Shown: positions 1 to 13,993 of the stretch, one piece after another
Layout: every line of letters begins with the position of its first letter
Position numbering within the stretch: position 1 is the first letter of the stretch
Source: an uncultured Erysipelotrichaceae bacterium
Lineage (GTDB): Bacteria; Bacillota_I; Bacilli_A; Erysipelotrichales; Erysipelotrichaceae
Direction of reading: 5' to 3'
DNA: 32,000 nt
NCBI GenBank assembly: GCA_942493105.1
Contig: OW818668.1
Span: forward strand, 960,001-992,000
Made by a program: the position numbers and the translations under genes
Notes under the pieces: generated by a model
The model's database searches: none
Told to the model about the DNA's origin: nothing
What the model saw: only the letters and a program-made list of their open reading frames with translations

Positions 1-2
1 AT

Positions 3-1385
3 TTGAATTCTGGACTCCAAAATCATAATTATTACCAAAAGGATACTTATGAGAAAATATTTCGTGATTTATGGAAACATCTAAAGAAAGAGCATCTTGC
101 GGTTTTTGATATTCAACAAATTGAAAACTCTGATCTATTCAAATATTCACCATATAAGTCATTAACAACAGATCAATATTTTACAGTAGACCTAATTCTG
201 GATGATTTAGCAAGAAACTTTGATCAGAAAACCACAACAATTGTCAATGGTGGAGCTGGAACTGGGAAGACAGTTTTAGCAGTTTATCTCATTAAGTTGT
301 TAAAAACTTATGATAATGTGTCACAGATCTTTGATGATGAGTTTGAAGAAGATTATGTTAAAAACATTGTTGAAATTCTTAGACAGAAACAAAACCTCAA
401 AATTGCACTTGTCGTACCGATGACATCACTTAGGAAGACACTGAAGAAAGTGTTTAGGGGTGTAAAGGGCTTATCGGCCAGTATGGTTATTGGACCAAAT
501 GATGTGTCTAGAGACGATTATGATATTTTGATCGTTGATGAAGCTCATCGACTAAGAAGAAGACTTAATATTACAAATTACGCAGCTTTCGATAAAATCA
601 ATGCTGAATTAGGGTTTGGAAACGAAGGAACAGAACTAGATTGGATTATGGCTAAAAGTAAACACCAGATTTTGTTTTATGATTCAGCTCAAACAATTCG
701 ACCAGCAGATATTAGGGAAAGTCAGTTTAGTAATTTGTATAACCAAAATGATCTGTTTAAACAGTACGATCTGACTTCTCAGATGAGAAGTATGGGTGGG
801 CAAGATTATATTAATTACGTTAAGCAAATGTTTGCTTGTAACCCTAATCTGCAGAGAATTGTATTTGAAAATTATGAATTCAGAATCTTTGATAATGTAA
901 AAGATATGTATGACGAAATCAAAAAGAAAGATAGCGAAGTTGGATTATCTAGAATGGTTGCTGGATATGGTTGGGAATGGATTTCAAAAGGTAAATCATT
1001 AGAGTCAATTGTGAACAATGATCTATTCGATATCAGAATTCAAGGTCAGAAGTTTATTTGGAATACCACCAATAAAGACTGGGTTAACTCAAAAAATGCA
1101 TTAAATGAAATTGGGTGTATTCATACTACTCAGGGATATGATTTGAACTATGTTGGTATTATCATAGGAAATGAACTTACTTTTGATCCAATAGCGAATC
1201 AAATGGTGATAGATAAAGAACACTACTATGATCGAAATGGATTGACTAACATCGAAAACTATCAAGAATTGAAAGATTACATACTAAATATCTATTCAAC
1301 TCTATTCCTTCGCGGAATAAAGGGGACATATGTTTATGTTTGTCACAAAGATTTGAGGGAGTATTTAAGGAAATTCCTTGGATAA
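3..1385 (+). CDS. DUF2075-type P-loop NTPase (Schlafen-group-III/helicase-like); 5' end runs off the window
   Basis: ORF is open to the window edge. Walker A NGGAGTGKT and Walker B ILIVDEAHRL. Later motifs FYDSAQTIRP, HTTQGYDLNYVGIIIG and RGIKGTYVYV are typical of DUF2075 proteins (recognised by eye, no HMM run). Confidence 0.8.
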   Translation: MNSGLQNHNYYQKDTYEKIFRDLWKHLKKEHLAVFDIQQIENSDLFKYSPYKSLTTDQYFTVDLILDDLARNFDQKTTTIVNGGAGTGKTVLAVYLIKLLKTYDNVSQIFDDEFEEDYVKNIVEILRQKQNLKIALVVPMTSLRKTLKKVFRGVKGLSASMVIGPNDVSRDDYDILIVDEAHRLRRRLNITNYAAFDKINAELGFGNEGTELDWIMAKSKHQILFYDSAQTIRPADIRESQFSNLYNQNDLFKQYDLTSQMRSMGGQDYINYVKQMFACNPNLQRIVFENYEFRIFDNVKDMYDEIKKKDSEVGLSRMVAGYGWEWISKGKSLESIVNNDLFDIRIQGQKFIWNTTNKDWVNSKNALNEIGCIHTTQGYDLNYVGIIIGNELTFDPIANQMVIDKEHYYDRNGLTNIENYQELKDYILNIYSTLFLRGIKGTYVYVCHKDLREYLRKFLG

Positions 1386-1793
1386 ATGTTTGAAAGGTTA
1401 AATATGGAAACAATCAAAGTAGTGGCTGCCTTAATTAAGGATGCAGATAAATATCTCATTGGATTAAGGTCAACTGGTAAGTACAAAGGATTTTGGGAAT
1501 TCCCTGGGGGAAAAATTGAGGAGAATGAAGAACTCGAAGATGCATTAATGCGTGAGATTTATGAAGAGTTTGAAATCAATATAAGTATAGAAAAACTTCT
1601 TTTCAAAATCGAATACACTTATCCAGAGTTTATTCTTGAGATGTATTGTTTCTTGACTACCTCTTTAGACAAAGAATTTGTATTAAATGACCATAGTGAA
1701 ACAATGTGGTTTGACCCTAAAAACGATATCGAGATCAATTGGTTACCAGCGGATCTCAAAATTGTTGAATTATTGAAATGTGCTAATTTTTAG
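1386..1793 (+). CDS. NUDIX hydrolase, MutT/NudG-like (d)NTP pyrophosphohydrolase family
   Basis: Nudix box GGKIEENEELEDALMREIYEEFEI (GX5EX7REUXEEXGU). The ATG immediately follows the DUF2075 stop codon (1383-1385). An alternative start is the Met at 1404. Confidence 0.85.
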   Translation: MFERLNMETIKVVAALIKDADKYLIGLRSTGKYKGFWEFPGGKIEENEELEDALMREIYEEFEINISIEKLLFKIEYTYPEFILEMYCFLTTSLDKEFVLNDHSETMWFDPKNDIEINWLPADLKIVELLKCANF

Positions 1794-1980
1794 TGTTTCC
1801 AATATTAGTTGTTAATTCTGAATACAAATTCTGAGGAATTTCGTTTTCGAATTTCAAAATAATCGTAATAGGTCGGTTGCTTTTTTTATCATAATCAACC
1901 GTATTTGCTTTTCCCAAATATATAGGGTTCTGAAGTTCCATCAATTTTCTTGAACTTGCGGACAAAAATATGTAGTACAT
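1783..1980 (-). pseudogene. Out-of-frame 3' segment carrying the missing C-terminal end of the DUF3427 domain (not an independent gene)
   Basis: This frame reads ...NPIYLGKANTVDYDKKSNRPITIILKFENEIPQNLYSEL. That continues the ...GTSEPYIF end of the 909-aa ORF across the TATATATTT tract at ~1913-1927. Confidence 0.6.
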
Positions 1981-4624
1981 AGCCGTTATCTAAATTGAAT
2001 AAAATGTTTTTCCCTACTTTCGATTCTTGAGTTGTGTTATTTGGAGTCTGCCATTGAAGAGTGTTTTGGTTTAAAATTTTATCTTTATAGTTGATTGCTT
2101 CTCTAATGTCAGCATCTTTATTTAGGTCTATGAATAATAAATAGTTTTTCTCGTGTCTTAATAACCCTTGACCTCTAAAGGATGAGAACTTTTTCTCCAA
2201 ATTACAGAGTGGTGCTGTATCTGCCATTGTGTATGTTTCGTAAAGTTTGAAGAAAGGCACTACATACTCGAACTCGCCGAACTCACGTTGATATCTAAAA
2301 AGACCATATTTTATGACATCTTCAAAATACATTTTATTATAATCTGTGGTTACTTCACTCCATTGGTTTGACATTGAGACCATATTATTGTCAAGTACTA
2401 TAGGAGCTATGTATTTTCTGTACTTATCATCATCAAGAAATTTCCCCAATAGATTATTAATTGAGTGAGTTATTGAATTAATTGTAATCCCATTATACTT
2501 TGAAGAAATTTCAAGACTGATTTTCTCAAGTGATACAGTTCTATTTCGAAAGACCATCTCAAGAATAGTAAATTCTAAAGGTCTTCTTAGTGGTAAATTC
2601 GCTGAAAATTGTCTAATTAATTCTATGAAAAGAGGAGACCAATCGTTTTGATTCAATTTATCGCTTTCCATTCGAATCAAGAATTCAAGATAGCTCTTAG
2701 AGTATTTAATGAATCTAACAGGATCAGGACTTCCTTCATATAGCTCGTATTCCATTAAGAAGTATGGAATATTTTGTTTATTCATAGACTTGAAGCCGAA
2801 ATAGTTGTCTTTAAGGTATCTTAGTGATCTAAAATTCTCGTTTTGTAATTGGGAAATGATCTCATTTTTAGATATCTCATCCATTTGCACAAATGAATCT
2901 CCAGGAACCTCTCTGAACCCTTCTTTTACAGAGATCATTAGACTTTCTTTATCATAAAAGCGCTGTCCCTTAAGAGCAATAGCCATCATGAAGCTTTTTT
3001 TATAATTTCCAATAAAGTCGATGACCGTAACAAATTCTTTATCTGGTGTTTTTCTTAAACCACGTCCTAATTGTTGAATAAATATTATCGGAGAATTAGT
3101 TGGTCGTAGCATAAGTACCATATTGACTGATGGTATATCTATGCCCTCATTAAATACATCCCGCGTGAAAATAACTTCGACTGTTCCAACCTCATCTGAT
3201 TCCAATTCTTTTACATACTTTTCACGTGCTGGTACACTATCTGCGCCAGATAGAAAGACGCTTCTTATTCCTCGTTGATTAAAGGCGCTCATCATAAATT
3301 CAGCATGCTCAACACTTGCACAAAAACCCAAACATTTTAGTTTGTTACCTGTATGACCATACAATTTAATCTGTTTAACAATATAATCAACTCGGCTTTG
3401 AATGCTTAGTCTTCTTGTCAATTCGTCAATATCATTGTCGTCTAAATCAGAAAGTTTAATTCCATCAGCTTCTCGTATACCGAAATAATGAAACGGACAA
3501 ACTAATTCTTCCTCAATGGCTTCATATAGGCGAATTTCAAGAGCTATGTTATTTCTAAAAAAACTAAACAAACCATATCCATCAGTTCTTTCTGGTGTGG
3601 CAGTCATTCCCAGTATAAATTTGGGTTTAAAATATTCAATTACTTTTTGATATCCAGGAGCAAGAGCATGGTGTGTTTCATCAATCACCATATAATCAAA
3701 TTCTTGAGGACTAAAATCAAGATAATGTGTATACATGCTTTGAATTGTTGAAAACAAATATTTCGCATTTGTGTCCTTCTTAGTACCGCTTAATATTCCG
3801 CATTCAATTCCTGCACCTAAGACTCTTTTGTATGATTCAACAGCTTTATTAAGAATGTCCTCTCTATGAACCAAGAAGAGCACTCTATTTGGTTTAAATT
3901 GATGGATGTCAAAGGCAGACATATATGTTTTTCCGGTAGCTGTTGCAGCAATTACTAAACCACGATCTTCTCCTCGAGTTCTTAATTTGTGAAGATTAGC
4001 AATTGCTCTACTCTGCATTGAATTGGGTCTAACTGTTTCCTCAATAAACAGGAATTTCTCTTCTTGTTTATGTGCTTCCTTTAAAGTATTTATGAATGCT
4101 TCATATTGATCAAGGAATGCATTATCAATTGTCCTAGTCTTATTCCATAAATCGTTAAACTGACTATAAACATCGACAACAAATGGATGATCTTTTTTTG
4201 ATATTACCTTGACATTCCACTCGACGTTTTTTAGAAGGGCTTTCTCAGTAATATTGGATGAACCAATATAAAGAGTAATGTTTTCATCACTTTCGAAAAT
4301 ATATGCTTTTGTATGGAATCCACCAAATTCCTTCTGTAAATAGATCTTGGTTTCTATATTTGTAAATTCTTGAAGTTTTCGTAATGCCGCTGGGTCAGTA
4401 AAATTTAGGTAATCAGATGTAAGCACCTTTCCATATATATTTCTATCTTGGACATTCCGAATTTCACGTAGTAAAAGCTGTAAACCGCCAAAATTTATAA
4501 AAGCAACGCTGAAAATAAAACTTGAACAATTTTTAAGGCTAAAACAAATTTCGTCATACATACTAGAAATATCATTGTTTGAAATTAGTTCGATCCCGCT
4601 ATTGCTTAATGTAGGCTTTCCCAA
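1895..4624 (-). CDS. PLD-family nuclease / DExH superfamily-2 helicase / DUF3427 fusion protein; C-terminus apparently interrupted by a frameshift
   Basis: N-terminal single HKD-type motif HTKAYIF...GSSNIT. Helicase motifs AATATGKT (I), VIDETHHA (II), MTATPER (III) and QQLGRGLR (VI). The C-terminal region has the DUF3427-like pattern (LQWQTPNN...HIFVRKFKK...EPYIF) and ends prematurely at 1895. Confidence 0.85.
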   Translation of the reverse strand: MGKPTLSNSGIELISNNDISSMYDEICFSLKNCSSFIFSVAFINFGGLQLLLREIRNVQDRNIYGKVLTSDYLNFTDPAALRKLQEFTNIETKIYLQKEFGGFHTKAYIFESDENITLYIGSSNITEKALLKNVEWNVKVISKKDHPFVVDVYSQFNDLWNKTRTIDNAFLDQYEAFINTLKEAHKQEEKFLFIEETVRPNSMQSRAIANLHKLRTRGEDRGLVIAATATGKTYMSAFDIHQFKPNRVLFLVHREDILNKAVESYKRVLGAGIECGILSGTKKDTNAKYLFSTIQSMYTHYLDFSPQEFDYMVIDETHHALAPGYQKVIEYFKPKFILGMTATPERTDGYGLFSFFRNNIALEIRLYEAIEEELVCPFHYFGIREADGIKLSDLDDNDIDELTRRLSIQSRVDYIVKQIKLYGHTGNKLKCLGFCASVEHAEFMMSAFNQRGIRSVFLSGADSVPAREKYVKELESDEVGTVEVIFTRDVFNEGIDIPSVNMVLMLRPTNSPIIFIQQLGRGLRKTPDKEFVTVIDFIGNYKKSFMMAIALKGQRFYDKESLMISVKEGFREVPGDSFVQMDEISKNEIISQLQNENFRSLRYLKDNYFGFKSMNKQNIPYFLMEYELYEGSPDPVRFIKYSKSYLEFLIRMESDKLNQNDWSPLFIELIRQFSANLPLRRPLEFTILEMVFRNRTVSLEKISLEISSKYNGITINSITHSINNLLGKFLDDDKYRKYIAPIVLDNNMVSMSNQWSEVTTDYNKMYFEDVIKYGLFRYQREFGEFEYVVPFFKLYETYTMADTAPLCNLEKKFSSFRGQGLLRHEKNYLLFIDLNKDADIREAINYKDKILNQNTLQWQTPNNTTQESKVGKNILFNLDNGYVLHIFVRKFKKIDGTSEPYIFGKSKYG

Positions 4625-4857
4625 TTTGATTTCCTCGTAGTTTAATTATAACTTAATTGATCACATCATAATAAACAAATATATTATAGATCCTATTTTA
4701 AATCCTTTGGGAGTGTTAAGAATCATGCGTAAATTGATTTAGCTTTCTACGTGATCTTGAGTTTAAAAAGTTGACTTAATGTGTTTTCTGCTTTCGTGAA
4801 TCCTATGTGGATCCAGTTCAAAAATTTATGATACCAATCGATGAATAAACTGCAAAC

Positions 4858-5095
4858 GAAGTATTAGGACGAGGCTTCTTTTGGGAACTGCTCATATATT
4901 TTGGTTTGATGTTTCAGTTGTTTATGGAGACATCCAATCTAGTTGGTGGTGTACAGGTTTTCAGGATTGGCTGAGGGAAGTCGTAGAAGCAGGTCAAACT
5001 AAGATTGTCCTCTAATGCTTTGATCGCTTTAAGATAATGAGCTCGGTATTTGTTTTTGAAGGTCTCGAGATGAGATAAAGTAATTTCATTCGTTT
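4858..5095 (-). pseudogene. IS256-family (Mutator-type) transposase remnant, C-terminal part only, with in-frame stops
   Basis: The minus-strand translation is ...LSHLETFKNKYRAHYLKAIKALEDNLSLTCFYDFPQPILKTCTPPTRLDVSINN*NIKPKYMSSSQKKPRPN. It follows the IS256 Tnp pattern F..KY...YPK...SLE.N....FYDFP..I.K.IYTTN.IE..N...KR..K...FP.E. No intact ORF and no inverted repeats were identified. Confidence 0.6.
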
Positions 5096-5272
5096 CAGAT
5101 TGACAGATATCTTTGAGAACATCTCATCGATATTTCAACTTTGAAAAGTGCGCTCATTAATTCTATGTTAAAATTAGACATGGAAAATGCTATTTAAAAA
5201 GAAAATATGTGCAATATGTGCATAATAAACGATAAATAGTTTAAGACAAATGCATAATTTGTCTATTAAATA

Positions 5273-5301
5273 TTGACTTTACTAAGAACAAAATGTAATT
5301 T
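5273..5301 (+). promoter_or_regulatory. Possible sigma-A promoter of the four-gene operon
   Basis: TTGACT at 5273-5278, a 17-nt spacer ending in TG, then TAATTT at 5296-5301. The -10 element is weak. A small hairpin AGAAC/GTTCT (5308-5321) abuts the RBS GGGAGG. Confidence 0.3.
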
Positions 5302-5332
5302 AAGATTAGAACAATAGTTCTTGGGAGGAAAT

Positions 5333-5719
5333 ATGGGGTCAAGTGGTAGAGGCGAATTTGGAAATTATAAAGTAGATCGAAAAAGTGGTGGAGTCGGTAG
5401 TGGAAATAATGACACAACTATTGATATACAGTGTCCTGAATCAATTGAGAACATCCTACTTGAAGATATCAGTACTTGTGAATACTTCAAAACACTAAAT
5501 GGGTTGCCTTATGTAGGTCAAGATGTTTATATCAATTCTTTAATCATTGATGGAAGAATTGCTGTGGTCGATACAGCATCAACAAAAGTCATTGGGAATG
5601 TTCCGACTCGATATAATTACTTAATTGAGTGTATTTCTTCTATAAACTACATTGGTACAATTGAGATATCAGGTTTAATACCAATCCCGCATATAGTCGT
5701 AGAAATTCATGCAAAATAA
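5333..5719 (+). CDS. Small hypothetical protein with a Gly/Ser-rich disordered N-terminus (MGSSGRGEFGNY...GGVGSGNN) and a beta-rich C-terminal half; no recognisable family
   Basis: First gene of the operon. The strong RBS GGGAGG lies 4 nt upstream of the ATG at 5333; the track's TTG at 5321 is an alternative start, and both give Gly at position 2. Its stop overlaps the start of the next gene by 11 nt. Confidence 0.65.
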   Translation: MGSSGRGEFGNYKVDRKSGGVGSGNNDTTIDIQCPESIENILLEDISTCEYFKTLNGLPYVGQDVYINSLIIDGRIAVVDTASTKVIGNVPTRYNYLIECISSINYIGTIEISGLIPIPHIVVEIHAK

Positions 5720-7031
5720 AAAATGTCTTATAATTGGAGACGTTTTTATAGATGTTCATCTTGATGACATACAAGATGAATCTCCTATTATCCGACTTGG
5801 GGGGATTTTCCATGCTATACGGGCATTTTCAGCTATGGAGGAAAATTTTGGACATCTATATTTTGCACCAAGTTACTTAGTAGATGATATTGAACATTTC
5901 TCGAAGGAACTATCATCACAATATTCGAAATCAATTGGGGAGGTAATTAACTCACCGAATTTGATGTTAGTAAGTGACTCAAAGGAAGCTTCTTTACAGG
6001 GTTATCTCGATTTGCTAAAGTCGAAGAAAGAGATTAGTTATTCAGATAAAATTGAATTGAATATCCAAGAGTATTGCCCTACAGACGTTCTACTGTTTCC
6101 GGGGAAATATGATGTTAAAAGAATTCTTCAGTTGTTGGCAAAGCAAGATTGTAAAATACATATCGATATCCAGTATGATTTTGATCTTGATGATTTTTTT
6201 GAAGGACAAGAAATCGAAACTGTTTTTGTTTCCACATCGTCAAAGCATATACAGAGAATTGAAAATAAATCAACAATGGAGCTTATAGAAAAACTTTCCC
6301 ACTATTCCATAAAAACATTAGTTATAAAAGAAAATCGTGGAGGATCATTGATTTATGATTATGAAACTCAAAAAATATATAATATACCCGCATTTATCTC
6401 ATCGACAATACACTCAGTTGGTGTAGGAGATGTTTATAATGTAGTATATTTATGTATGTCGAAAGTGTATTCAACAATAAATGCTTCAAAATGTGCATCT
6501 TATGCGGCTTCTTTATACGCTCAGACATATGACTACATTGGTTTTAAGAATAGAATGAAATTCCTTTTGGGGAATGTAGATAAGATCTCAAGTCTAAATG
6601 GAGTTCGAGTATCTTGGGACTCAAGACCGACTATTAATGTTTATATTGCTGCGCCAGATTTCCCAACAGTTGATACAAGAATTATTGATGAAGTCCAATC
6701 TTCTTTAAAGTATCACAATTTTAGCCCACGATTACCAATAAGGGAGAATGGATTGTATCTTGACAGTATGTCAAAAAAGGAAGAGTTGACACTTTTCTAC
6801 AAGGATATTGAGCTACTAAGCAGATGCGATTTGTTAATTGCAATTATTCTGATTAATGATCCTGGAACATATGTTGAGCTTGGTATTTTTAAACAAATGG
6901 GGAAACCTACAATCGTTTATGATCCTTTTGGAATATGTCAAAACATGTTTGCAAAGAACACAGCCGACTATTTTTGTACAAATCTTTCTGAGGTTGTAGA
7001 TGCAACATTTGTTGCCATGAGAGGAACATGA
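5709..7031 (+). CDS. Fusion protein: N-terminal PfkB/ribokinase-family kinase domain + C-terminal nucleoside 2-deoxyribosyltransferase-like (NDT/PF05014-like) domain
   Basis: PfkB signatures: IIGDVFIDVHL...RLGGIFHAIRAFSAM at the N-terminus and IHSVGVGDVYNVVYL (DTxGAGDxF-type). The NDT-like half has VYIAAPDFP and INDPGTYVELGIFKQMGKPTIVYDP (D.GT..E.G....GKP motif with Asp and Glu retained). Confidence 0.75.
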   Translation: MQNKKCLIIGDVFIDVHLDDIQDESPIIRLGGIFHAIRAFSAMEENFGHLYFAPSYLVDDIEHFSKELSSQYSKSIGEVINSPNLMLVSDSKEASLQGYLDLLKSKKEISYSDKIELNIQEYCPTDVLLFPGKYDVKRILQLLAKQDCKIHIDIQYDFDLDDFFEGQEIETVFVSTSSKHIQRIENKSTMELIEKLSHYSIKTLVIKENRGGSLIYDYETQKIYNIPAFISSTIHSVGVGDVYNVVYLCMSKVYSTINASKCASYAASLYAQTYDYIGFKNRMKFLLGNVDKISSLNGVRVSWDSRPTINVYIAAPDFPTVDTRIIDEVQSSLKYHNFSPRLPIRENGLYLDSMSKKEELTLFYKDIELLSRCDLLIAIILINDPGTYVELGIFKQMGKPTIVYDPFGICQNMFAKNTADYFCTNLSEVVDATFVAMRGT

Positions 7032-7032
7032 A

Positions 7033-7659
7033 ATGAAGTATGATGCATTAATCTTGGCTTCTGGTGGGATGGATTCTACAGTCCTTTTGTATCAATTGAG
7101 AAATGAAATGAAAAATCCAATTATTTTATTCCTTGATTATGGACAACACTGTAGAGATACTGAGTATAATACCCTAAAATTAGTTATTCCTGAAGAGTTT
7201 AAAGAGAACATTAGGCTAGTTAATATTAAAGATATCTACAGAGAATCTAGCTCAGTTATGATTCACGAAACTGATTTGTGGAAAAATGATGTAAAAGCTG
7301 ATGACATGTATCTTCCATATAGGAATCTGCTATTTCTTTCTATAGGATCCGCATATGCTCAATCTTTAGGAATAAAAAATGTATATTCTGCTTTTATAAA
7401 TAGCAATCATGCTAAAGAAATTGATTGTTCTGTGGAGTTTTTTTCGCGTCTTGAGGAATTGCTTTCAGAATACGGCTCAGTGAAAATAATAACACCATTT
7501 CGCGAACTTACAAAGACAGATGTTGCTAGATTAGGACTCGAACTTAATGCTCCTATTTCGTTAACATATTCGTGTCAAATTAATTCCAAAAATCCATGTG
7601 GAGCATGTCCAAACTGCGTTGATAGGCTACAGGCAATAAAAAACCTGATTCAAGATTGA
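7033..7659 (+). CDS. QueC-like PP-loop ATPase (7-cyano-7-deazaguanine synthase family), orphan copy
   Basis: N-terminal PP-loop ILASGGMDSTV. C-terminal Zn-cysteine cluster SCQINSKNPCGACPNCVDRL as in QueC. The ~208-aa length fits the family. It starts 1 nt after the upstream stop. Confidence 0.8.
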   Translation: MKYDALILASGGMDSTVLLYQLRNEMKNPIILFLDYGQHCRDTEYNTLKLVIPEEFKENIRLVNIKDIYRESSSVMIHETDLWKNDVKADDMYLPYRNLLFLSIGSAYAQSLGIKNVYSAFINSNHAKEIDCSVEFFSRLEELLSEYGSVKIITPFRELTKTDVARLGLELNAPISLTYSCQINSKNPCGACPNCVDRLQAIKNLIQD

Positions 7660-7670
7660 AGGATGATTTT

Positions 7671-8315
7671 ATGGATGCAATCAAATATCGAAGCGAGATT
7701 GACAAATTAGTTCGGTTTATTGGGATGCAGAATTTTTGTTTTGAGCAATTTGATGATAGATGCGTATATGAACATATGAGCGCTGTCATTGTAGATTCGA
7801 TATTACAAGCAGGAATGAATTACGATAGAATTGTTCTTCCTAGAGTTCGGATGCTAATAGAGAAATATGATGATTTCAGAACTACTGAGGATTTTTTGGT
7901 ACTTATTCAAGCAAAACCACTAGGCCAATTAATTAGTTGGCGTAATGAAAAGAAACTAGAAAGAATAAGAAAATTGACTTGGTACTTCTATGAACGTAGG
8001 ATAAATAAAATCTCTGATCTTCAGGAATGGTTTCGGACTGAAGAAAACATAATGAATCTTAGATTAATTAATGGTATTGGTCCAAAAACTGTCGACTACA
8101 TGAAAAAGCTTGTTGGAATAGATACATTTGCTGTTGATCGACATTTGTTTAAATTTCTGGAATTGTCCGGAGTGTGTACAACTGACTATGTGGAAGCAAC
8201 TATAATATATGAAAACGCTTCACTAGAGCTACATATTGATAAATGGACACTTGACAAAGCTATATGGGACCTAATGTCGGCCAATGGATTATTGCACTTA
8301 AGGTTAATCATTTAA
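7671..8315 (+). CDS. HhH-GPD superfamily DNA glycosylase-like protein (EndoIII/OGG2-like)
   Basis: Helix-hairpin-helix LINGIGPKTVDYMKKLVGIDTFAVDRHLF parallels Nth LPGVGRKTANVV...IAVDTHIF. The Lys and the Asp ~17 residues later are retained. The ATG at 7671 has the RBS AAGGA; the track's TTG at 7656 overlaps the queC-like stop by 4 nt and is an alternative start. Confidence 0.65.
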   Translation: MDAIKYRSEIDKLVRFIGMQNFCFEQFDDRCVYEHMSAVIVDSILQAGMNYDRIVLPRVRMLIEKYDDFRTTEDFLVLIQAKPLGQLISWRNEKKLERIRKLTWYFYERRINKISDLQEWFRTEENIMNLRLINGIGPKTVDYMKKLVGIDTFAVDRHLFKFLELSGVCTTDYVEATIIYENASLELHIDKWTLDKAIWDLMSANGLLHLRLII

Positions 8316-8957
8316 TGATTGAGGCATCCAATATATGCTTCACCGACGAATTATGAAGTAGGTAACAATACTGTATATTTCAATGAAACAAATTACTTTT
8401 AAAAATGGACATCCCTGGTATATTATGACAAACCCGAATTCGCTGAGCGCTTTATTACAAACCTATTGCAATAGGGTGAATGATTCAATGGATTTATGTA
8501 TTAATCAAAATTCTTCCTAATAGCGTACCTTTAGGTGATTCTATAATCCTGGTATTTTGTTCAAAATGTTTCATGTGTTTCTATTGTAAAGTTAAAAAAT
8601 CTTGATCACTAAGTATCTAATAGACGAAATCATGATTTGGAGTATTTTGAGATAGTAACAGTACTTCGGTAAAATGTCATGTTGGTATACCTTCACCAGA
8701 ATTTTAGCAATACTCTGACTATACAAAATGTTAATGGCAGATAAAGTATAGAAGGTAATTGCGGATTTTTGAGAGGTTTGAAGGCTGGTTTAAACGAGGG
8801 AAAGAAGAAACCTAATCGCATCTTCCTCTTTACCATGATTTCATTCAATAAATGCGAATATTTGAATTATCATTTCATAGTCAATACACTTTAAACCATT
8901 AGAAAACTGGCTGATTTAGAGGGTTCATGTACTTTGGTGAGGTTATGAGATATAAAA

Positions 8958-8988
8958 ATATCTTCTTGCATATTTATGAAGAAGATAT
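8958..8988 (-). terminator. Hairpin downstream of the GntR/EIIB unit (weak intrinsic terminator)
   Basis: ATATCTTCTT (8958-8967) pairs with AAGAAGATAT (8979-8988). On the minus strand the stem is followed by TTTTAT. Confidence 0.35.
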
Positions 8989-9112
8989 ATTGAGAACTTT
9001 TCAATATTTTATGCTGTAATTTCCGGCATTTTCATTTTGTATGGTCCGAGATTTCTAAAATCAATTAATCTACAATTAAAAATATATTGTGTTGAAATTT
9101 TTGACCTTCAAC

Positions 9113-9829
9113 TTAATTATCATCTATATTTCTAGAAATGGATATAGCCATTCGATCTGTTCTATAGTAATTGATGGAAATAAAAATGGGATCATGTTTT
9201 CGTGTAAAAAATGTCATTGTAGATTTGATCAGAGGAAAACCAACGGAAACATCTAGGTTATTTGCTATGGCAGCATCAGCATTTAAAGCAATCAATTCTT
9301 GCTTTCCATATGCTAAGTTGATATTCTTCGATTTAAGGTGTTCAACAATGGAACCCTCAGCAATCTCTTTTGTGATTGATCCGCATATTTTGGTTACCCA
9401 ATATGATTCTTCATACAACACTTCTAAATTATTAACATATCTAATGCGATTGATCACCCATACCTCATCTTCATCGCTTATACCTAAATAGTTTTGAGTA
9501 ATCAATGGGCATTTTCGTTTTTCAATAGACAAAACTTTACTGCTGGGCACATTACCAAGCATTTTGGTGCTTTCAGTAAAACTGACAACTTTTCCCACCC
9601 TTTTTTCAAGCATCCTTGTTTTAACAAAGGTCCCTTTGCCTCTTTCTCGAGTTAAGTAACCTTTTTCTTCCAGATACTTCAAAGCATGTCTTATTGTTAC
9701 TCGAGAGACACCAAATATGTCAGCTAACTCATCTTCTGAAGGGATTTTTGATCCAGCAGGATACTCTTCGAATTGAATCTTCTCATATATCTTATCGGAC
9801 ACAAATTGATACTTTAGTTCGTTTGCCAT
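9113..9829 (-). CDS. GntR-family transcriptional regulator, HutC subfamily (wHTH + UTRA effector domain)
   Basis: N-terminal LPSEDELADIFGVSRVTIRHALKYLEEKGYL, typical of GntR wHTH domains. The ~238-aa length and C-terminal pattern are typical of UTRA. Confidence 0.85.
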   Translation of the reverse strand: MANELKYQFVSDKIYEKIQFEEYPAGSKIPSEDELADIFGVSRVTIRHALKYLEEKGYLTRERGKGTFVKTRMLEKRVGKVVSFTESTKMLGNVPSSKVLSIEKRKCPLITQNYLGISDEDEVWVINRIRYVNNLEVLYEESYWVTKICGSITKEIAEGSIVEHLKSKNINLAYGKQELIALNADAAIANNLDVSVGFPLIKSTMTFFTRKHDPIFISINYYRTDRMAISISRNIDDN

Positions 9830-9844
9830 AACACACCCCTACCT

Positions 9845-10129
9845 TTAGTCCACTTTATATTTGCTAATGTAATCTTCTAATGCTGCCTTCACTTCACTGA
9901 CTGACATATATCGTTTTATCTCATAAACAGGAATATTGCGAGTGGTTCTAAACTCATCTGCTAAATCACTTGATGTAAATATAACATCACATTTTATGCT
10001 TCTAGCAGTTGTTAAATCCGTGTTTTCAGCTTCAAAATCATAACCCAATTCTCTTAATGCTTTATCTATACTGATTTTTAGCAATAATGATGATCCAACA
10101 CCAAATCCACAGACAGCAACTATTTTCAT
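9845..10129 (-). CDS. PTS EIIB component, ascorbate/galactitol (L-Asc) family
   Basis: MKIVAVCGFGVGSS carries the active-site Cys loop. The ~94-aa size fits the family. Confidence 0.8.
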   Translation of the reverse strand: MKIVAVCGFGVGSSLLLKISIDKALRELGYDFEAENTDLTTARSIKCDVIFTSSDLADEFRTTRNIPVYEIKRYMSVSEVKAALEDYISKYKVD

Positions 10130-10333
10130 GTTTTAACCTCTTTCCACTGCAACTTTAATTATACAACATAAATGACTGTTTTCAAGCATATGTACTATAT
10201 ATGTTCTATCAAAATATTCATAAAGCCTATTAAATATGGTTATATCCCGCTTAAACTGTATATATGTATTATAATAATTTCATTATTGTATTGTATTTGT
10301 ATCTATTATATGTTTATATTATTCTAAGATGAG

Positions 10334-10780
10334 GTGAGCACTGTGTTAATTGAATTACTCAAAAACAATATACAACACGTTAATCAAGTCAATAGTTGGA
10401 AAGAAGCCATACTCCTTTCTGCGAACCCTCTTTTACAAAATAATTCAATAACCAGCACCTATACAGACGCAATGATCGATATGTGTGAGAAGTTTAAAGG
10501 ATACATTGTCCTAAATGATTATTTTGCCATGCCACATGCTACATCAACCTTTGGTGTCAATAAACTATCCATAAGTTTATTGATCTTAAAAGAATCTGTC
10601 GATTTTTTCGGAAAACCAGTTCACTTGGTTTTAACATTAGCCCCAATCGACAATCATTCGCACCTTCAATTACTCCAAGAAGTAGCTCTTTACTTTAGTG
10701 AAGTTGATGTCATTCTTGAAATTGCTAAAACAACAAGCACAGAAGATGTGTTCGAAATACTCAAAAGGAAAGGAAGGTGA
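10334..10780 (+). CDS. PTS EIIA component (EIIA type 2, ascorbate/mannitol-fructose class)
   Basis: 148 aa, contains FAMPHA (phosphorylatable His context), and sits next to the EIIC gene. The GTG at 10343 after AGGTGA may be the true start. Confidence 0.7.
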   Translation: MSTVLIELLKNNIQHVNQVNSWKEAILLSANPLLQNNSITSTYTDAMIDMCEKFKGYIVLNDYFAMPHATSTFGVNKLSISLLILKESVDFFGKPVHLVLTLAPIDNHSHLQLLQEVALYFSEVDVILEIAKTTSTEDVFEILKRKGR

Positions 10781-10841
10781 CTAAAAGATCATTCGAACCA
10801 TGTTGAGTGTTTGATGTCCAAAAAACAAAAAGGAGAAAAAA

Positions 10842-12116
10842 ATGCTTGTAATATGGAATTTAGTCATAAATAATATTTTTAGAAATCCTCCGGTTTTAAT
10901 CGGTTGTATCGCCGCGCTTGGTCTCATACTACAAAAGAAGAAAGTTGAAGATATATTTAAAGGGGCAGTATTGGCGGCAGCAGGTTTGTATATGCTGACC
11001 GAAGGTGTCAATTTCTTATCAAGTTCAATTACTGCGATCAACGTTGTATTTAGACAAATTGCGGGTACAACTGTACCGGCTGGTTTAGATGCAGCATCGT
11101 TTATTGTTGAATTTGGATCAGAAACTGGTCTTGCTATGTTCTTTGGATTAATTTTGCATCTGTTCATTGCGCGGTTTACGCCTATCAAAACAGTATTCTT
11201 AACTGGGCACTTCTTGTGGTGGTTCCCATTAACCTTTACTGCTGCAGGTGTTGAAGGGGGATTAGTTGGTGTTCCATTAATTGTTTTTGCTGCTATTTGT
11301 TCAGCGATTTATTGGTCTGTTGCACCTTGGATCTTGAAGAAATTCGTTTGGGATGTTACAAATGATAAAACTTGGATTCTTGGTCATCCAACAGGTATCT
11401 TGAGCCTTATTGCAGGTAATGTTTCTAGACTCGTTGGAGACAAAAAGAAATCGACCGAAGACTTAGTTCTTCCTAAGAGACTGTCTTTCTTAAAAGAAAT
11501 CTCAGTCATTGGTTTCTTAGTTATTTTCTTACTTTATCTCGTGGTTGACTTCTCATTTGGGGGAAAGATTGCCGTATATGCTGCCACACCAATTTTTGCT
11601 TATGCCATTAATATGGGCTTAAGATTTGGTGTTGGATTACTTATTTTGCTACAAGGGGTTAGAATGCTCATTAATCAGATCGTTCCTGCCTTTGAAGGAA
11701 TCTCAACGAAGTTGATTCCTAATGCTATTCCTGCCTATGATTGTCCTTTGTTGTTCCCATACAAGCCAAATGCTTTGATTATTGGATTCTTGACCGCTAT
11801 GGTTGTATCTGTACCTTTGATGTTCTACTTCAATTCAATCAACTTGTTTGGAATAATGGTTGTCCCACTGGTAATCACATGTTTCTTTGAATGTGGAACT
11901 GCAGCCATCATCGCAGATGCTCAGGGTGGTCTAAGAGGCGCAATTATTGGAACAGCTGTCGCTGCTATTGCAATGGTATTGTTGGTTGGTTATTCTTCTG
12001 CTTTCTTTGAACACACGATTCAAAACAGAATGTTGGTGGTCTCCGGAAATGACTATTCGCTCTATGGACCATTAGCGGGTTTTCTAGCTAGACTTATTTC
12101 TACTTTTATAGGGTAG
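10842..12116 (+). CDS. PTS EIIC permease, UlaA/SgaT (ascorbate) family
   Basis: 424-aa polytopic membrane protein. RBS AAGGAG is upstream. It clusters with L-Asc-type EIIA and EIIB genes. Confidence 0.8.
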   Translation: MLVIWNLVINNIFRNPPVLIGCIAALGLILQKKKVEDIFKGAVLAAAGLYMLTEGVNFLSSSITAINVVFRQIAGTTVPAGLDAASFIVEFGSETGLAMFFGLILHLFIARFTPIKTVFLTGHFLWWFPLTFTAAGVEGGLVGVPLIVFAAICSAIYWSVAPWILKKFVWDVTNDKTWILGHPTGILSLIAGNVSRLVGDKKKSTEDLVLPKRLSFLKEISVIGFLVIFLLYLVVDFSFGGKIAVYAATPIFAYAINMGLRFGVGLLILLQGVRMLINQIVPAFEGISTKLIPNAIPAYDCPLLFPYKPNALIIGFLTAMVVSVPLMFYFNSINLFGIMVVPLVITCFFECGTAAIIADAQGGLRGAIIGTAVAAIAMVLLVGYSSAFFEHTIQNRMLVVSGNDYSLYGPLAGFLARLISTFIG

Positions 12117-12169
12117 TGTAGTATTGTTATCTTACTGGTTGTCCGGAAGTATTCCAAAGGAGAAAAAGT

Positions 12170-12409
12170 ATGAGTGAGCAAAGCACACAAGTAGAGGTTA
12201 AAAGTAAACTTCCTAAAATGGGTCTCTTTGTTTCAATATTTTCTTTATTCATAAGCTTCTATGGCTTGTTGGCTTTATTATCTATTGTTCTCTGCTTAGT
12301 TGCTTATACAAATTATCATACAGATAAAAATGCTCGGTTTTACTCACTTCTTGGTATAGTTCTAGGAACTGCTAGTTTATTGTATTCTTACTTAATTATG
12401 GTAAATTAA
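12170..12409 (+). CDS. Small membrane protein (two predicted TM helices), function unknown
   Basis: 79 aa with hydrophobic stretches LFVSIFSLFISFYGLLALLSIVLCLVAY and LLGIVLGTASLLYSYLIMV. RBS AAGGAG is upstream and a terminator follows. Confidence 0.55.
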   Translation: MSEQSTQVEVKSKLPKMGLFVSIFSLFISFYGLLALLSIVLCLVAYTNYHTDKNARFYSLLGIVLGTASLLYSYLIMVN

Positions 12410-12444
12410 ATTCTAGTTAAGTAATGTTTTGTAATTAAAACATT

Positions 12445-12491
12445 AAGACACAAAACCCCAATTATTTCATAGGAGTTTTGTGTCTTTTATT
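12445..12491 (+). terminator. Rho-independent terminator after the PTS genes
   Basis: The 12-bp stem AAGACACAAAAC (12445-12456) / GTTTTGTGTCTT (12475-12486) is followed by TTAT. A second small hairpin, AATGTTTT/AAAACATT, lies just upstream at 12423-12444. Confidence 0.7.
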
Positions 12492-13990: not shown

Positions 13991-13993
13991 ACT

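What the first reader, a model, noticed from the sequence alone, without database searches (positions are those of the whole stretch)
5709..7031. Unusual fusion of a PfkB/ribokinase-fold kinase with a nucleoside 2-deoxyribosyltransferase-like domain
Seen: residues ~1-290 carry both PfkB signatures (LGGIFHAIRA and SVGVGDVY). Residues ~305-440 carry the NDT-family signatures (VYIAAPDFP and DPGTYVELGIFKQMGKPTIVYDP), with the acidic residues corresponding to the NDT catalytic Asp and Glu retained. Established: NDT/PF05014-fold enzymes exchange or remove bases on (deoxy)nucleosides or nucleotides (NDT, DNPH1/Rcl). PfkB kinases phosphorylate sugars and nucleosides. NDT-like and related Rossmannoid domains recur as nucleotide-processing effectors in conflict systems. 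Inference: one polypeptide could couple base exchange or removal with phosphorylation. That could load an unusual base, such as a deazapurine made by the adjacent QueC-like enzyme, onto (deoxy)ribose and phosphorylate it. Alternatively it could deplete a nucleotide pool.
Basis: partly seen in the sequence, partly recalled or inferred. Interest (0 to 1): 0.7.

Follow-up and report, generated by a model that had tools for sequence, protein, structure and literature searches.

The report
Kinase–deoxyribosyltransferase in a QueC defence cassette
The kinase–deoxyribosyltransferase fusion is real and is one of three core genes (usually with a fourth) of a mobile, phage-defence-like cassette that probably tags a small protein's N-terminus with a 7-deazaguanine base and may then build that base into a nucleotide, which bears on an open question about type IV CBASS and Qat immunity.

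Summary
ORF 5709-7031 encodes a 440-aa protein. Its N-terminal domain has a ribokinase/PfkB fold (Foldseek probability 1.0), with the GG motif and the GxGD Asp241 kept. Its C-terminal domain matches PF05014 (nucleoside 2-deoxyribosyltransferase, NDT) above Pfam's cut-off, with Tyr312, Asp366, Asp384 and Glu390 kept.

It is not a lone oddity. It is gene 2 of a tightly overlapping cassette found in the same order in at least 78 loci across many phyla, on plasmids, prophage ends and defence islands.
It encodes a 128-aa protein with a highly conserved MGSxGxGxFxDY N-terminus, a disordered Gly/Ser linker and a HIRAN-like domain.
- Gene 3 is a QueC-family enzyme whose best solved match is Cap9.
- Gene 4 is a Cap11/Ogg2-like glycosylase. 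In other loci it is replaced or joined by a NUDIX, MazG or dGTPase gene.

Best reading, by inference: the QueC-like enzyme conjugates 7-carboxy-7-deazaguanine to Gly2 of the small protein, as in type IV CBASS and QatABCD. The NDT domain stands in for the TGT-like Cap10 and adds deoxyribose at N9. The fused kinase then phosphorylates it.

One 2026 paper noted PfkB-NDT genes next to a QueC clade and called them purine salvage. I class this as a new variant of a known kind. Nothing here has been tested biochemically.

The parts
5323..5328 (+). Shine-Dalgarno GGGAGG, placed 4 nt before the ATG at 5333. It sets the true start of gene 1; the mechanical TTG start at 5321 lies inside it.
   Evidence: Sequence read directly. 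An identical 128-aa product is on record in NCBI (P0121). All homologues start at the aligned MGS.
5333..5719 (+). Gene 1: 128-aa small protein, the predicted substrate for N-terminal deazaguanylation. Residues 1-12 are MGSSGRGEFGNY (5333-5368). Residues 13-32 are a disordered Gly/Ser-rich linker. Residues 33-128 are a HIRAN-like beta-rich domain (5429-5716).
   Evidence: M1, G2, S3, G5 and Y12 are invariant in 40 aligned homologues. MGS is at the aligned start in 68 of 68 genome loci. AlphaFold2 gives pLDDT < 50 for residues 10-30 and > 90 for the domain. The top 17 Foldseek PDB hits are all HIRAN domains. There is no Pfam or NCBIfam family.
5709..6593 (+). Gene 2, N-terminal PfkB/ribokinase-fold kinase domain (residues about 1-295). 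G10xxxxD15, G31-G32, K207-E-N-R-G-G212 and H235-S-V-G-V-G-D241 are invariant.
   Evidence: Foldseek E about 1e-13, probability 1.0, to ribokinase, ketohexokinase and nucleoside kinase. hhalign places D241 on the GAGD Asp of the window's own ribokinase. Invariant columns are listed.
6621..7031 (+). Gene 2, C-terminal NDT-fold domain (residues about 305-440). Y312, D366, D384 and E390 (codon 6876-6878) are invariant, as is N412.
   Evidence: PF05014 at 45.2 bits against a cut-off of 28.8. The alignment to NDT 6evs pairs YIAAPDF with YLASPFF, KDIELL with NDLEHI and DPGTYVELG with DTGTAWELG.
7033..7659 (+). Gene 3: 208-aa QueC-family ATP-dependent ligase, Cap9-like. It has the PP-loop SGGMDS, YGQHCxxTE, YLPYRN, HAKEIDC and the C-terminal CQx6CxxCxxCxD zinc motif.
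   Evidence: PF06508 E = 6.8e-36. PADLOC CBASS-IV QueC model E = 1.1e-26. Best PDB match is Cap9 9nto_B at 1.7e-16, against QueC at 5.6e-14. It is below the TIGR00364 equivalog cut-off.
7656..8315 (+). Gene 4: 219-aa HhH-GPD glycosylase, Ogg2/Cap11-like. The hairpin GIGPK(144)T and AVD(161)RH are kept.
   Evidence: The profile hits archaeal-type 8-oxoG glycosylase/AP lyases: 9o00 at 6.4e-07, plus 3fhf and 3knt. The PADLOC CBASS 'OGG' model is matched by 12 of 20 members, best 4e-08. K144 and D161 are invariant.

Best explanation
The 440-aa protein is a bifunctional enzyme: a PfkB-fold kinase fused to an NDT-fold N-deoxyribosyltransferase. It works inside a mobile cassette that resembles known phage-defence systems built around QueC-family enzymes.

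Proposed order of events:
1. The QueC-like enzyme (gene 3) adenylates 7-carboxy-7-deazaguanine. It joins it by an amide bond to the free amine of Gly2 of the small HIRAN-like protein (gene 1), as Cap9 does to CdnD. N9 of the base stays free.
2. The NDT domain takes the place of the TGT-like Cap10. Through its Glu390 nucleophile it moves a 2-deoxyribosyl group from a deoxynucleoside, probably deoxyguanosine, onto N9 of the tethered base.
3. The fused kinase phosphorylates the new sugar. The result is a protein-tethered 7-deaza-dGMP-like nucleotide.
4. That nucleotide, perhaps after further phosphorylation, is delivered to DNA ends by the HIRAN-like domain and interferes with phage DNA.
5. The variable fourth gene (OGG-like glycosylase, MutT-like NUDIX, MazG or dGTPase) either erases the product or controls the deoxyguanosine supply.

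What is shown: the architecture, the conserved residues, the synteny and the mobile or defence context. What is inferred: steps 1 to 5. Confidence falls along the list, roughly 0.6 for step 1, 0.4 for steps 2-3 and 0.2 for step 4.
For: Architecture and catalytic residues. The pTM of 0.92 for the whole two-domain model suggests a fixed inter-domain arrangement.

Cassette conservation:
- Small gene, PfkB-NDT, QueC-like and OGG-like lie in the same order and strand in 58 of 69 genome loci from many phyla. The same holds on plasmids and on 9 IMG/VR contigs.
- The genes overlap or abut: 5719/5709, 7031/7033, 7659/7656.
- PfkB-NDT and QueC are fused in Bacillaceae.

Small protein:
- MGSxGxGxFxDY is highly conserved at residue 1, followed by a linker of variable length and a HIRAN-like fold.
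- This matches the published requirements for a deazaguanylation substrate: an M(G/S)G(G/S)GG or MGTS N-terminus on a disordered tail, with G2D lethal to defence.

QueC-like protein: closest solved relative is Cap9. It keeps the nucleobase-binding Asp (D131) and the Arg-Asn pair (R97-N98) that QatC has lost.

Accessory genes all act on deoxyguanine-type substrates: OGG-like (58/69 loci), NUDIX directly upstream in 8 of the 11 OGG-less loci, MazG-like in another, and a dGTPase or HD gene on the same strand within about 2 kb in 9 loci, as well as inside the operon of the distant Moraxella variant.

Context:
- A type IV restriction enzyme and a helicase-NUDIX pair lie next door in the window.
- AbiLi, NsnB/AriA-like ATPases, the dGTPase defence gene, a TIR protein and integrases are neighbours in other loci.
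- The cassette sits at a prophage tail end in the 65%-identical relative.
- The window's island has low GC.
Against: - There is no biochemical or genetic test of any step, and defence itself is inferred only from context. PADLOC has no model for gene 1 or gene 2.
- The canonical L. leichmannii NDT-2 does not accept 7-deazapurine bases, because N7 is read by its C-terminal carboxylate. This family has a variable C-terminus, so its base pocket must differ, and I could not examine it.
- The PfkB NxxE motif is not evident; S175-T-S-S occupies that region. Kinase activity and its substrate are therefore unproven.
- About 9% of small-protein clusters start M-E-[ST] rather than M-G-[ST]. That does not fit a strict Gly2 requirement.
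- The HIRAN-like domain is supported by fold only (Foldseek E about 3e-03; Pfam HIRAN seen once at E = 0.14). The classic 3'-OH-binding residues were not mapped.
- No obvious toxin or effector is encoded.
Confidence: 0.4

Rival explanations
1. Hydrolytic effector under tail control. The NDT domain, with or without the kinase, is the toxic effector. It acts as an N-glycosidase that destroys nucleosides or nucleotides, as DNPH1, MilB or TIR-like enzymes do. The deazaguanylated tail of the small protein sits in its base pocket as an inhibitor or sensor, as NDG-CdnD sits in Cap10, until infection releases it.
For: Cap10 holds NDG-modified CdnD in an inactive 2:2 complex. NDT-fold hydrolases exist, and MilB CMP N-glycosidase appears among weak PDB hits. 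The cassette has no other obvious effector. It occurs in a defence-island context.
Against: This does not explain why a kinase with an intact catalytic Asp is always fused. It also does not explain why the accessory gene is a DNA glycosylase, NUDIX, MazG or dGTPase. The nearest solved relatives by sequence are transferases, not hydrolases.
Confidence: 0.2
2. Free-base route. The QueC-like enzyme makes a free 7-deazaguanine (ADG or preQ0) from CDG. The NDT domain loads it onto deoxyribose and the kinase makes the dNMP. The result feeds modified or poisonous nucleotides into DNA, for self-marking or to harm phage.
For: The QueC-like protein keeps most canonical QueC motifs and aligns end to end with QueC structures. 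The NDT-plus-kinase logic is the same as in the best explanation. OGG, NUDIX and dGTPase fit handling of a modified dG nucleotide.
Against: It leaves the always-present gene-1 protein and its conserved N-terminal tail unexplained. The QueC-like protein is below the QueC equivalog cut-off, and its best solved match is Cap9. Canonical NDT rejects 7-deazapurines.
Confidence: 0.15
3. Direct transglycosylation on nucleic acid. The NDT domain exchanges a base in DNA, for instance at a 3' end held by the HIRAN-like domain, for the protein-tethered deazaguanine. This crosslinks the small protein to phage DNA. The kinase acts on a DNA or sugar hydroxyl, and the OGG-like enzyme removes the crosslink.
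For: The HIRAN fold is a DNA 3'-end binder in HLTF (PDB titles). The fourth gene is an HhH-GPD DNA glycosylase with intact Lys and Asp. Cap10 is proposed to transfer NDG-CdnD onto an unknown target.
Against: From my own knowledge, known NDT-fold enzymes act on free nucleosides or nucleotides, not polymers. The variants with NUDIX, MazG or dGTPase in place of OGG point to a soluble nucleotide intermediate.
Confidence: 0.12
4. Ordinary purine or deazapurine salvage. This is the reading of Libby et al. 2026 for PfkB-NDT genes next to QueC 'Cluster 4': a housekeeping nucleoside-recycling enzyme pair.
For: It is the published annotation-level interpretation. Both domains belong to families used in salvage.
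Against: The distribution is rare and patchy: 69 loci found among representatives of 185,579 species, scattered over many phyla. The cassette sits on plasmids, prophage ends and defence islands, with different neighbours even among close relatives. It is always linked to a tail-bearing HIRAN-like protein and usually to a DNA glycosylase. The window's island has low GC.
Confidence: 0.03

Closest known systems
Type IV CBASS accessory module (Cap9 QueC-like, Cap10 TGT-like, Cap11 OGG-like) acting on the CD-NTase CdnD
   Same: It has a QueC-family ligase whose best solved match is Cap9. It has an OGG-like HhH-GPD gene matching the PADLOC CBASS 'OGG' model. The partner protein has a Met-Gly-Ser/Gly N-terminus on a disordered tail. 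It also includes a second enzyme from a base-exchanging (transglycosylase) family.
   Different: There is no CD-NTase, no cyclic-nucleotide effector and no TGT-fold protein in the cassette or its flanks. The tail-bearing protein is a 128-aa HIRAN-like protein. The transglycosylase is an NDT-fold domain fused to a PfkB kinase.
QatABCD (QatC QueC-like enzyme with QatB substrate)
   Same: A QueC-family enzyme is paired with a small partner protein that has a conserved MG(T/S) N-terminus and a long disordered tail.
   Different: QatC models match only weakly (E = 0.006 and 8.5e-05, below cut-off). There are no QatA ATPase or QatD TatD genes. QatB is helical, whereas gene 1 is a beta-rich HIRAN-like fold. 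This QueC-like protein keeps the base-binding Asp that QatC has replaced.
QueC 'Cluster 4' with PF00294-PF05014 neighbour (Libby et al. 2026, PMC13329287)
   Same: The paper reports a QueC paralogue next to a PfkB-NDT fusion in about 89% of neighbourhoods. The distant Moraxella plasmid variant (L071) carries exactly their CH(x)5CxxCxGCxK motif.
   Different: The window's QueC-like protein has CQ(x)6CxxCxxCxD instead, so it is a different QueC clade. The paper reads the pair as purine salvage. In its text and in its neighbourhood rows for Cluster 4 retrieved here, it lists HTH, nitroreductase and LysR neighbours and makes no mention of the small tail-bearing protein or of OGG, NUDIX or dGTPase partners.
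Type II nucleoside 2-deoxyribosyltransferase (L. leichmannii NDT-2; PF05014)
   Same: The fold family is shared. The residues that align with the covalent nucleophile Glu98, with Asp92 next to the sugar, with base-contacting Asp72 and with the N-terminal Tyr are all invariant.
   Different: It is fused to a kinase. The C-terminus varies in length, so it lacks the conserved C-terminal carboxylate that reads purine N7. The expected acceptor, a 7-substituted 7-deazaguanine, is one that NDT-2 rejects.
PfkB ribokinase / nucleoside kinases (PF00294)
   Same: It has the ribokinase fold, the N-terminal sugar-binding Asp position, the GG dipeptide and the GxGD catalytic Asp.
   Different: It is too diverged to reach the Pfam model itself. 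The NxxE motif is not evident. H35, R38 and the KENRGG block are family-specific. No NCBIfam equivalog applies; the best is tagatose kinase at 22 bits against a cut-off of 420.
HIRAN domain (HLTF, Rad5, Lp_0118)
   Same: The predicted fold of residues 33-128 matches only HIRAN domains among its top 17 PDB hits, with probability 1.0 and target-normalised TM 0.52-0.65 for the stand-alone HIRAN domains.
   Different: There is no significant sequence-profile match. DNA-end binding was not tested. A modified N-terminal tail on a HIRAN domain is found in no paper of the library searched here.

Membership tests
PfkB / ribokinase-like kinases (PF00294) | Ribokinase-like alpha/beta fold with lid | tested here: met
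   The AlphaFold2 model has pLDDT 93.6. Foldseek matches ribokinase, ketohexokinase and nucleoside kinase with E about 1e-13, probability 1.0 and 310-350 aligned columns.
PfkB / ribokinase-like kinases (PF00294) | Match to the Pfam model above the curated cut-off | tested here: not met
   The window protein has no PF00294 hit at E <= 0.1. Eleven of 34 homologues hit it at E <= 0.01.
PfkB / ribokinase-like kinases (PF00294) | GG dipeptide, N-terminal sugar-binding Asp, and GxGD with catalytic Asp | tested here: met
   G31, G32, D15 and G238-V-G-D241 are invariant in 34 sequences. D241 aligns with the GAGD Asp of the window's own ribokinase and of 2qcv. The D15 and GG equivalence was judged by eye.
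PfkB / ribokinase-like kinases (PF00294) | NxxE Mg/phosphate motif | tested here: inconclusive
   No NxxE is seen in the expected region. Invariant S175-T-S-S and K207-E-N-R-G-G lie there instead. No coordinates were available to check the geometry.
Nucleoside 2-deoxyribosyltransferase (PF05014) | Match to the Pfam model above the curated cut-off | tested here: met
   45.2 bits against a cut-off of 28.8, E = 1.2e-11, residues 311-404. All 34 of 34 homologues match.
Nucleoside 2-deoxyribosyltransferase (PF05014) | Catalytic Glu nucleophile and flanking Asp/Tyr residues | tested here: met
   E390, D384, D366 and Y312 are invariant. They align with ELG, DTGT, NDLEHI and YLASPFF of NDT 6evs. The residue roles come from LlNDT-2 structures.
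Nucleoside 2-deoxyribosyltransferase (PF05014) | Deoxyribosyl transfer between bases (enzyme activity) | not testable with these tools
   This needs an assay with purified protein.
Type IV CBASS | CD-NTase signalling enzyme plus Cap effector | tested here: not met
   None of the seven ORFs of 80 aa or more in window 1-8315 matches a CD-NTase or CBASS effector model in Pfam or PADLOC.
Type IV CBASS | Cap9 (QueC-like ligase) | tested here: met
   PADLOC QueC (CBASS) E = 1.1e-26. The best PDB hit is Cap9 9nto_B at 1.7e-16.
Type IV CBASS | Cap10 (TGT-fold transglycosylase) | tested here: not met
   There is no TGT-like ORF. The only transglycosylase-type domain is NDT-fold.
Type IV CBASS | Partner protein with M(G/S)G(G/S)GG-type N-terminus on a disordered tail | tested here: met
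   MGSSGRG... sits at residue 1 behind a strong SD. It is invariant in close homologues. About 87% of 150 distant cluster representatives have G2 and 9% have E2. The tail is disordered.
Type IV CBASS | Cap11 (OGG-like) | tested here: met
   PADLOC OGG E = 2.4e-04 for the window protein. Twelve of 20 family members match, best 4e-08.
QatABCD | QatA ATPase, QatB, QatC with extensions, QatD TatD nuclease | tested here: not met
   Only weak sub-threshold QatC similarity was found. The QueC-like protein is 208 aa, against about 400 aa for QatC. There are no ATPase or TatD genes in the cassette.
Canonical QueC (preQ0 synthase, TIGR00364) | Score above the equivalog cut-off | tested here: not met
   103.1 bits against a cut-off of 150.3.
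QueC 'Cluster 4' of Libby et al. 2026 | C-terminal CH(x)5CxxCxGCxK motif | tested here: not met
   The window protein has S-C-Q-INSKNP-C-GA-C-PN-C-V-D. The Moraxella variant L071 does carry the motif.
HIRAN domain (PF08797) | HIRAN fold | tested here: met
   The top 17 Foldseek PDB hits are all HIRAN domains, with probability 0.98-1.0 and E from 2.7e-03 to 6.4e-02.
HIRAN domain (PF08797) | Sequence-profile membership and 3'-OH-binding pocket residues | tested here: not met
   The Pfam HIRAN model is seen in 1 of 32 members at E = 0.14. There is no PDB sequence hit. Pocket residues were not mapped.
HhH-GPD glycosylases (Ogg2 / EndoIII type) | Helix-hairpin-helix with catalytic Lys, and downstream catalytic Asp | tested here: met
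   GIGPK144T and VD161RH are invariant. They align with the GxGxKEAS and IDRH motifs of the Ogg2 structures 9o00 and 3fhf. The catalytic roles of those positions are from my own knowledge.

The most novel reading that the evidence does not exclude
The cassette builds a nucleotide from the base outwards on a protein. A 7-deazaguanine is first amide-linked to the N-terminus of a HIRAN-like protein. The NDT domain then deoxyribosylates it and the fused kinase phosphorylates it, giving a protein-tethered 7-deaza-dG nucleotide. That nucleotide is attached to or incorporated at DNA 3' ends to block phage replication. OGG-like, NUDIX/MazG or dGTPase enzymes act as erasers or gatekeepers, in a mirror of the MutT/OGG logic for 8-oxoguanine. 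If so, it would also suggest what the TGT-like Cap10 does with NDG in type IV CBASS.
Probability: 0.2. Interest if true: 0.9.

Novelty: new variant of a known kind. Interest (0 to 1): 0.75.

Why it matters
Protein deazaguanylation was described only in 2025-2026, and its downstream chemistry is an acknowledged open question. Nobody knows what happens at the free N9 of the tethered base, what Cap10 transfers it to, or why an OGG-like gene rides along.

This cassette keeps the QueC-like ligase, the Gly-tailed substrate and the OGG-like gene. It swaps the enigmatic TGT-like protein for two enzymes with well-understood chemistry: deoxyribosyl transfer to a base, and phosphorylation of a sugar. It also swaps the CD-NTase for a small DNA-end-binder-like domain.

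That points to a concrete, testable pathway from base to nucleoside to nucleotide on a protein. The system is compact (three core genes, usually with a fourth), which suits mass spectrometry and reconstitution. It also corrects a published 'purine salvage' reading of PfkB-NDT genes next to QueC paralogues. Finally, it adds a previously unannotated protein family: 311 clusters at 50% identity, with no Pfam or NCBIfam model.

Tried and rejected
- PROSITE-style regexes for the two PfkB signatures, recalled from memory, matched neither the fusion nor the window's own bona fide ribokinase. The test was uninformative and I dropped it.
- hhalign of the family profile against the single ribokinase sequence aligned only the C-terminal 65 residues. 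The N-terminal motif equivalences (D15, GG) therefore rest on inspection plus the fold match.
- A single-sequence search for relatives of the small protein found only 3. A profile was needed to find more.
- Sequence-profile searches of the small protein against PDB and Pfam gave nothing significant. Only the predicted structure revealed the HIRAN-like fold.
The closest relatives are Erysipelotrichaceae-type.
- No tRNA, no Rfam family and no convincing flanking repeats mark the island borders.
- There is no match in deposited phage genomes.
- The first literature search for QueC plus HIRAN returned only word-start noise. The whole-word search returned nothing.
- I considered and rejected membership of type IV CBASS (no CD-NTase, no TGT), of QatABCD (no QatA or QatD, no QatB-like fold) and of housekeeping salvage (distribution and context).


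Full report
**1. The observation**

ORF 5709-7031 (+) is a 440-aa frame at exactly the stated coordinates, and the four quoted strings sit at residues 30-39, 235-243, 311-319 and 384-406.

The C-terminal assignment is solid. Pfam PF05014 matches residues 311-404 at 45.2 bits against a cut-off of 28.8, and all 34 aligned homologues match it. A family profile finds solved deoxyribosyltransferases, with 6evs at 2e-08.

The N-terminal assignment is weaker by sequence. The protein itself does not reach PF00294, and only 11 of 34 homologues do. By structure it is clear. A pLDDT 93.6, pTM 0.92 model matches ribokinases, ketohexokinases and an archaeal nucleoside kinase over 310-350 columns, at E about 1e-13 and probability 1.0.

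Conserved residues in 34 sequences of 40-90% identity:
- Kinase domain: G10xxxxD15, G31-G32, K207-E-N-R-G-G212 and H235-S-V-G-V-G-D241 are invariant.
- D241 aligns with the GAGD catalytic Asp of the window's own ordinary ribokinase (15230-16126) and of 2qcv.
- NDT domain: Y312, D366, D384, E390 and N412 are invariant. The first four align with the Tyr, the two Asp and the Glu of the ELG motif in a solved NDT.
- In L. leichmannii NDT-2 the corresponding Glu98 forms the covalent deoxyribosyl intermediate, Asp92 flanks the sugar and Asp72 contacts the base.
- The PfkB NxxE motif is not evident.

The fusion is therefore real, and both halves look catalytically competent.

**2. What surrounds it**

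The gene is the second of four tightly packed genes on the + strand.

*Gene 1.* The mechanical ORF begins at a TTG at 5321. A GGGAGG Shine-Dalgarno sequence at 5323-5328 precedes the ATG at 5333, and NCBI holds the identical 128-aa product. The protein starts MGSSGRGEFGNY.

*Conserved synteny.* A scan of one genome per species found 69 loci in Bacillota, Bacteroidota, Planctomycetota, Acidobacteriota, Actinomycetes, TM6, Chloroflexota and Proteobacteria.
- In 68 of them a homologue of the small protein lies immediately upstream of the PfkB-NDT gene. The QueC-like gene lies immediately downstream, or fused to it, in all 69.
- In 58 of them the fourth gene follows.
- The one locus without the small gene is cut by a contig end.
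- The same cassette is on Bacillus cereus-group megaplasmids, a 70-kb Neotabrizicola plasmid and a Cupriavidus plasmid. It is also on nine IMG/VR viral contigs. It is not in deposited phage genomes.
- In Bacillaceae the PfkB-NDT and QueC genes are fused into one protein of about 660 aa.

**3. The small protein**

Every genome-locus homologue begins MGS[STA]G.G.F..Y at the aligned position. M1, G2, S3, G5 and Y12 are invariant in a 40-sequence alignment.

A low-complexity Gly/Ser-rich linker of very variable length follows. After it comes a roughly 95-residue domain with conserved Cys34, Tyr51, Pro59, Arg75, G88xxP91TxxNY and Cys100.

AlphaFold2 predicts residues 10-30 as disordered and the domain at pLDDT above 90. 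The 17 best Foldseek matches in the PDB are all HIRAN domains (Lp_0118, HLTF, Rad5), with probability 0.98-1.0. Sequence profiles find nothing significant; Pfam HIRAN appears once at E = 0.14.

An exhaustive profile search of 1.84 billion cluster representatives finds only 311 clusters. Nearly all are stand-alone proteins of 110-140 aa, with profile position 1 at residue 1. The family has no Pfam, NCBIfam or PADLOC model.

**4. The QueC-like and OGG-like genes**

*Gene 3.*
- It is a clear PF06508 member.
- It scores 103 bits against a 150-bit equivalog cut-off for genuine QueC.
- It hits the PADLOC type IV CBASS QueC model at 1e-26.
- Its profile's best solved match is Cap9 (9nto_B, 1.7e-16), ahead of two QueC structures.
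- It keeps the PP-loop, the Arg-Asn loop and the Asp of the (Y)xDC nucleobase-binding motif (D131). The stacking Tyr position holds an invariant Glu.

*Gene 4.*
- It is an HhH-GPD glycosylase.
- Its profile hits archaeal-type 8-oxoguanine glycosylase/AP lyases, with 9o00 at 6e-07.
- It also hits the CBASS 'OGG' (Cap11) model, in 12 of 20 members.
- The hairpin Lys144 and the downstream Asp161 are invariant.

**5. What is known about such parts**

In type IV CBASS, Cap9 uses the QueC mechanism to amide-link 7-carboxy-7-deazaguanine to Gly2 of the CD-NTase. That protein's disordered N-terminus begins M(G/S)G(G/S)GG. The TGT-like Cap10 then holds this 'NDG' base in its transglycosylase pocket. 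A G2D change abolishes defence.

The target of transfer is unknown. [quoted passage not shown]

QatABCD works through a QatC-QatB pair with an MGTS tail, again with unknown downstream chemistry.

The only paper in the library that mentions this fusion is Libby et al. 2026. It reports PF00294-PF05014 genes next to a QueC 'Cluster 4' and calls them purine salvage. Nothing in the library pairs QueC with a HIRAN domain.

The window's QueC-like protein does not carry the Cluster 4 Cys motif. A distant variant on a Moraxella plasmid does. That variant has a small protein starting MSGSGGG, a 405-aa PfkB-NDT, a QueC-like gene and a dGTPase. At least two QueC clades therefore share this partnership.

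**6. The variable fourth gene**

Of the 11 genome loci without the OGG-like gene:
- Eight have a MutT-like NUDIX gene about 100 nt upstream on the same strand.
- One has a MazG-like pyrophosphohydrolase 1.5 kb downstream.
- Two show nothing in the sequence available.

An HD or dGTPase-type gene lies on the same strand within about 2 kb in nine loci. One example hits the PADLOC dGTPase model at 3.9e-67. In the Moraxella variant the dGTPase gene overlaps the QueC-like gene.

All of these enzymes classically handle guanine deoxynucleotides or damaged guanine. OGG removes a base from DNA, MutT-type NUDIX and MazG hydrolyse dNTPs, and dGTPase turns dGTP into deoxyguanosine. That description is established knowledge. 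Its application to this cassette is inference.

**7. Context**

- In the window the cassette lies in a 32-33% GC stretch beside 38-44% GC metabolic operons. It sits next to a PLD-helicase-DUF3427 type IV restriction enzyme and a DUF2075 helicase-NUDIX pair.
- The 65%-identical relative sits right after prophage tail genes.
- The 90%-identical relative lies between phage replication genes and a TIR protein plus an SNF2/methylase/ResIII set.
- Neighbours elsewhere include AbiLi, NsnB/AriA-like ATPases, PDC-M26A, integrases and PIN/HTH genes.

This is the signature of a horizontally mobile defence-type cassette, not of salvage metabolism.

**8. Most likely mechanism**

Shown:
- a three-gene core: tail-bearing HIRAN-like protein, PfkB-NDT and Cap9-like ligase;
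- a usual glycosylase or nucleotide-hydrolase partner;
- intact catalytic residues in every enzyme;
- a mobile or defence context.

Inferred, in falling order of confidence:
- (a) The QueC-like enzyme deazaguanylates Gly2 of the small protein.
- (b) The NDT domain, replacing Cap10, transfers 2-deoxyribose from a deoxynucleoside onto N9 of the tethered base, and the fused kinase phosphorylates the sugar.
- (c) The tethered nucleotide reaches DNA ends through the HIRAN-like domain and blocks phage DNA. The OGG-like, NUDIX/MazG or dGTPase enzyme erases it or controls supply.

Points against:
- There is no experiment.
- LlNDT-2 rejects 7-deazapurines.
- The NxxE motif is missing.
- About 9% of small-protein clusters begin M-E-[ST] rather than M-G-[ST].
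- HIRAN similarity is at fold level only.
- There is no obvious killing effector.

Rivals:
- an NDT hydrolase effector gated by the modified tail;
- direct base exchange on DNA;
- plain salvage.

**9. Verdict**

The fusion belongs to a distinct, previously unrecognised member of the QueC-family 'protein deazaguanylation' systems, so I class it as a new variant of a known kind.

It fails the membership tests for type IV CBASS (no CD-NTase, no TGT) and for QatABCD, but it plausibly works like them in its first step. Its value is that the second step is carried out by enzymes whose chemistry is well understood. That turns an open question about these systems into a short list of mass-spectrometry and reconstitution experiments.

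Noticed in passing
window 3-1385 (+), 1386-1793 (+), 1895-4624 (-): A partial DUF2075/Schlafen-group-3 helicase runs off the window start. It is followed directly by a MutT-like NUDIX gene (PADLOC candidate PDC-S07, 8.6e-41), then by a PLD + SF2 helicase + DUF3427 type IV restriction enzyme (mREase_IV, 5.4e-154). In L055 a 39%-identical restriction enzyme overlaps the same NUDIX type just upstream of the cassette. L032 also has this NUDIX type next to the cassette. L054 has MazG-like plus DUF2075 genes downstream. This could be a loose functional link or just defence-island company.
   Followed up: partly
small-protein family (P0259-P0405); window 5336-5338 is the Gly2 codon: Among 150 cluster representatives of the small protein, about 131 start M-G-[ST]. 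Fourteen start M-E-[ST] and one each M-D-S and M-C-S. A Glu at position 2 should block Met removal and does not fit the Gly2 rule seen in CdnD and QatB.
   Followed up: partly
L071 (Moraxella osloensis plasmid pNP7-2) 5071-8730: This is a distant variant of the cassette: a small protein starting MSGSGGG, a 405-aa PfkB-NDT, a QueC-like gene with the Libby 'Cluster 4' Cys motif, and an annotated anti-phage dGTPase overlapping the QueC-like gene. It is flanked by IS elements and a DNA methylase.
   Followed up: partly
L081 1-9446 and L082 12714-21156: The closest relatives of the window cassette sit in quite different places. One is directly after prophage tape-measure and tail genes. The other is beside a CAP12-PCTIR TIR protein and an SNF2 helicase / N6-N4 methyltransferase / ResIII set.
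   Followed up: no
window 1-11000 versus 11000-24000: GC content is 32-33% across the defence-type genes and the first sugar-utilisation genes, then rises to 38-44%. No tRNA gene or Rfam family marks a boundary.
   Followed up: partly
window 5077-5094 and 8382-8399: An 18-nt imperfect inverted repeat (83% complementary) brackets the cassette. It is probably chance in AT-rich DNA.
   Followed up: no
L054 8002-9417; L017 8116-8877: In two OGG-less loci the QueC-like gene, or the fusion, is followed by an unannotated gene (471 aa and 253 aa) with no Pfam match. These may be further alternative fourth components.
   Followed up: no
PMC13329287 supplementary Table S2: In the proteobacterial QueC 'Cluster 4', a nitroreductase-family gene (PF00881) is in the operon in about 20% of neighbourhoods. 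No such gene was noted among the recurrent flanking gene clusters that I annotated.
   Followed up: no
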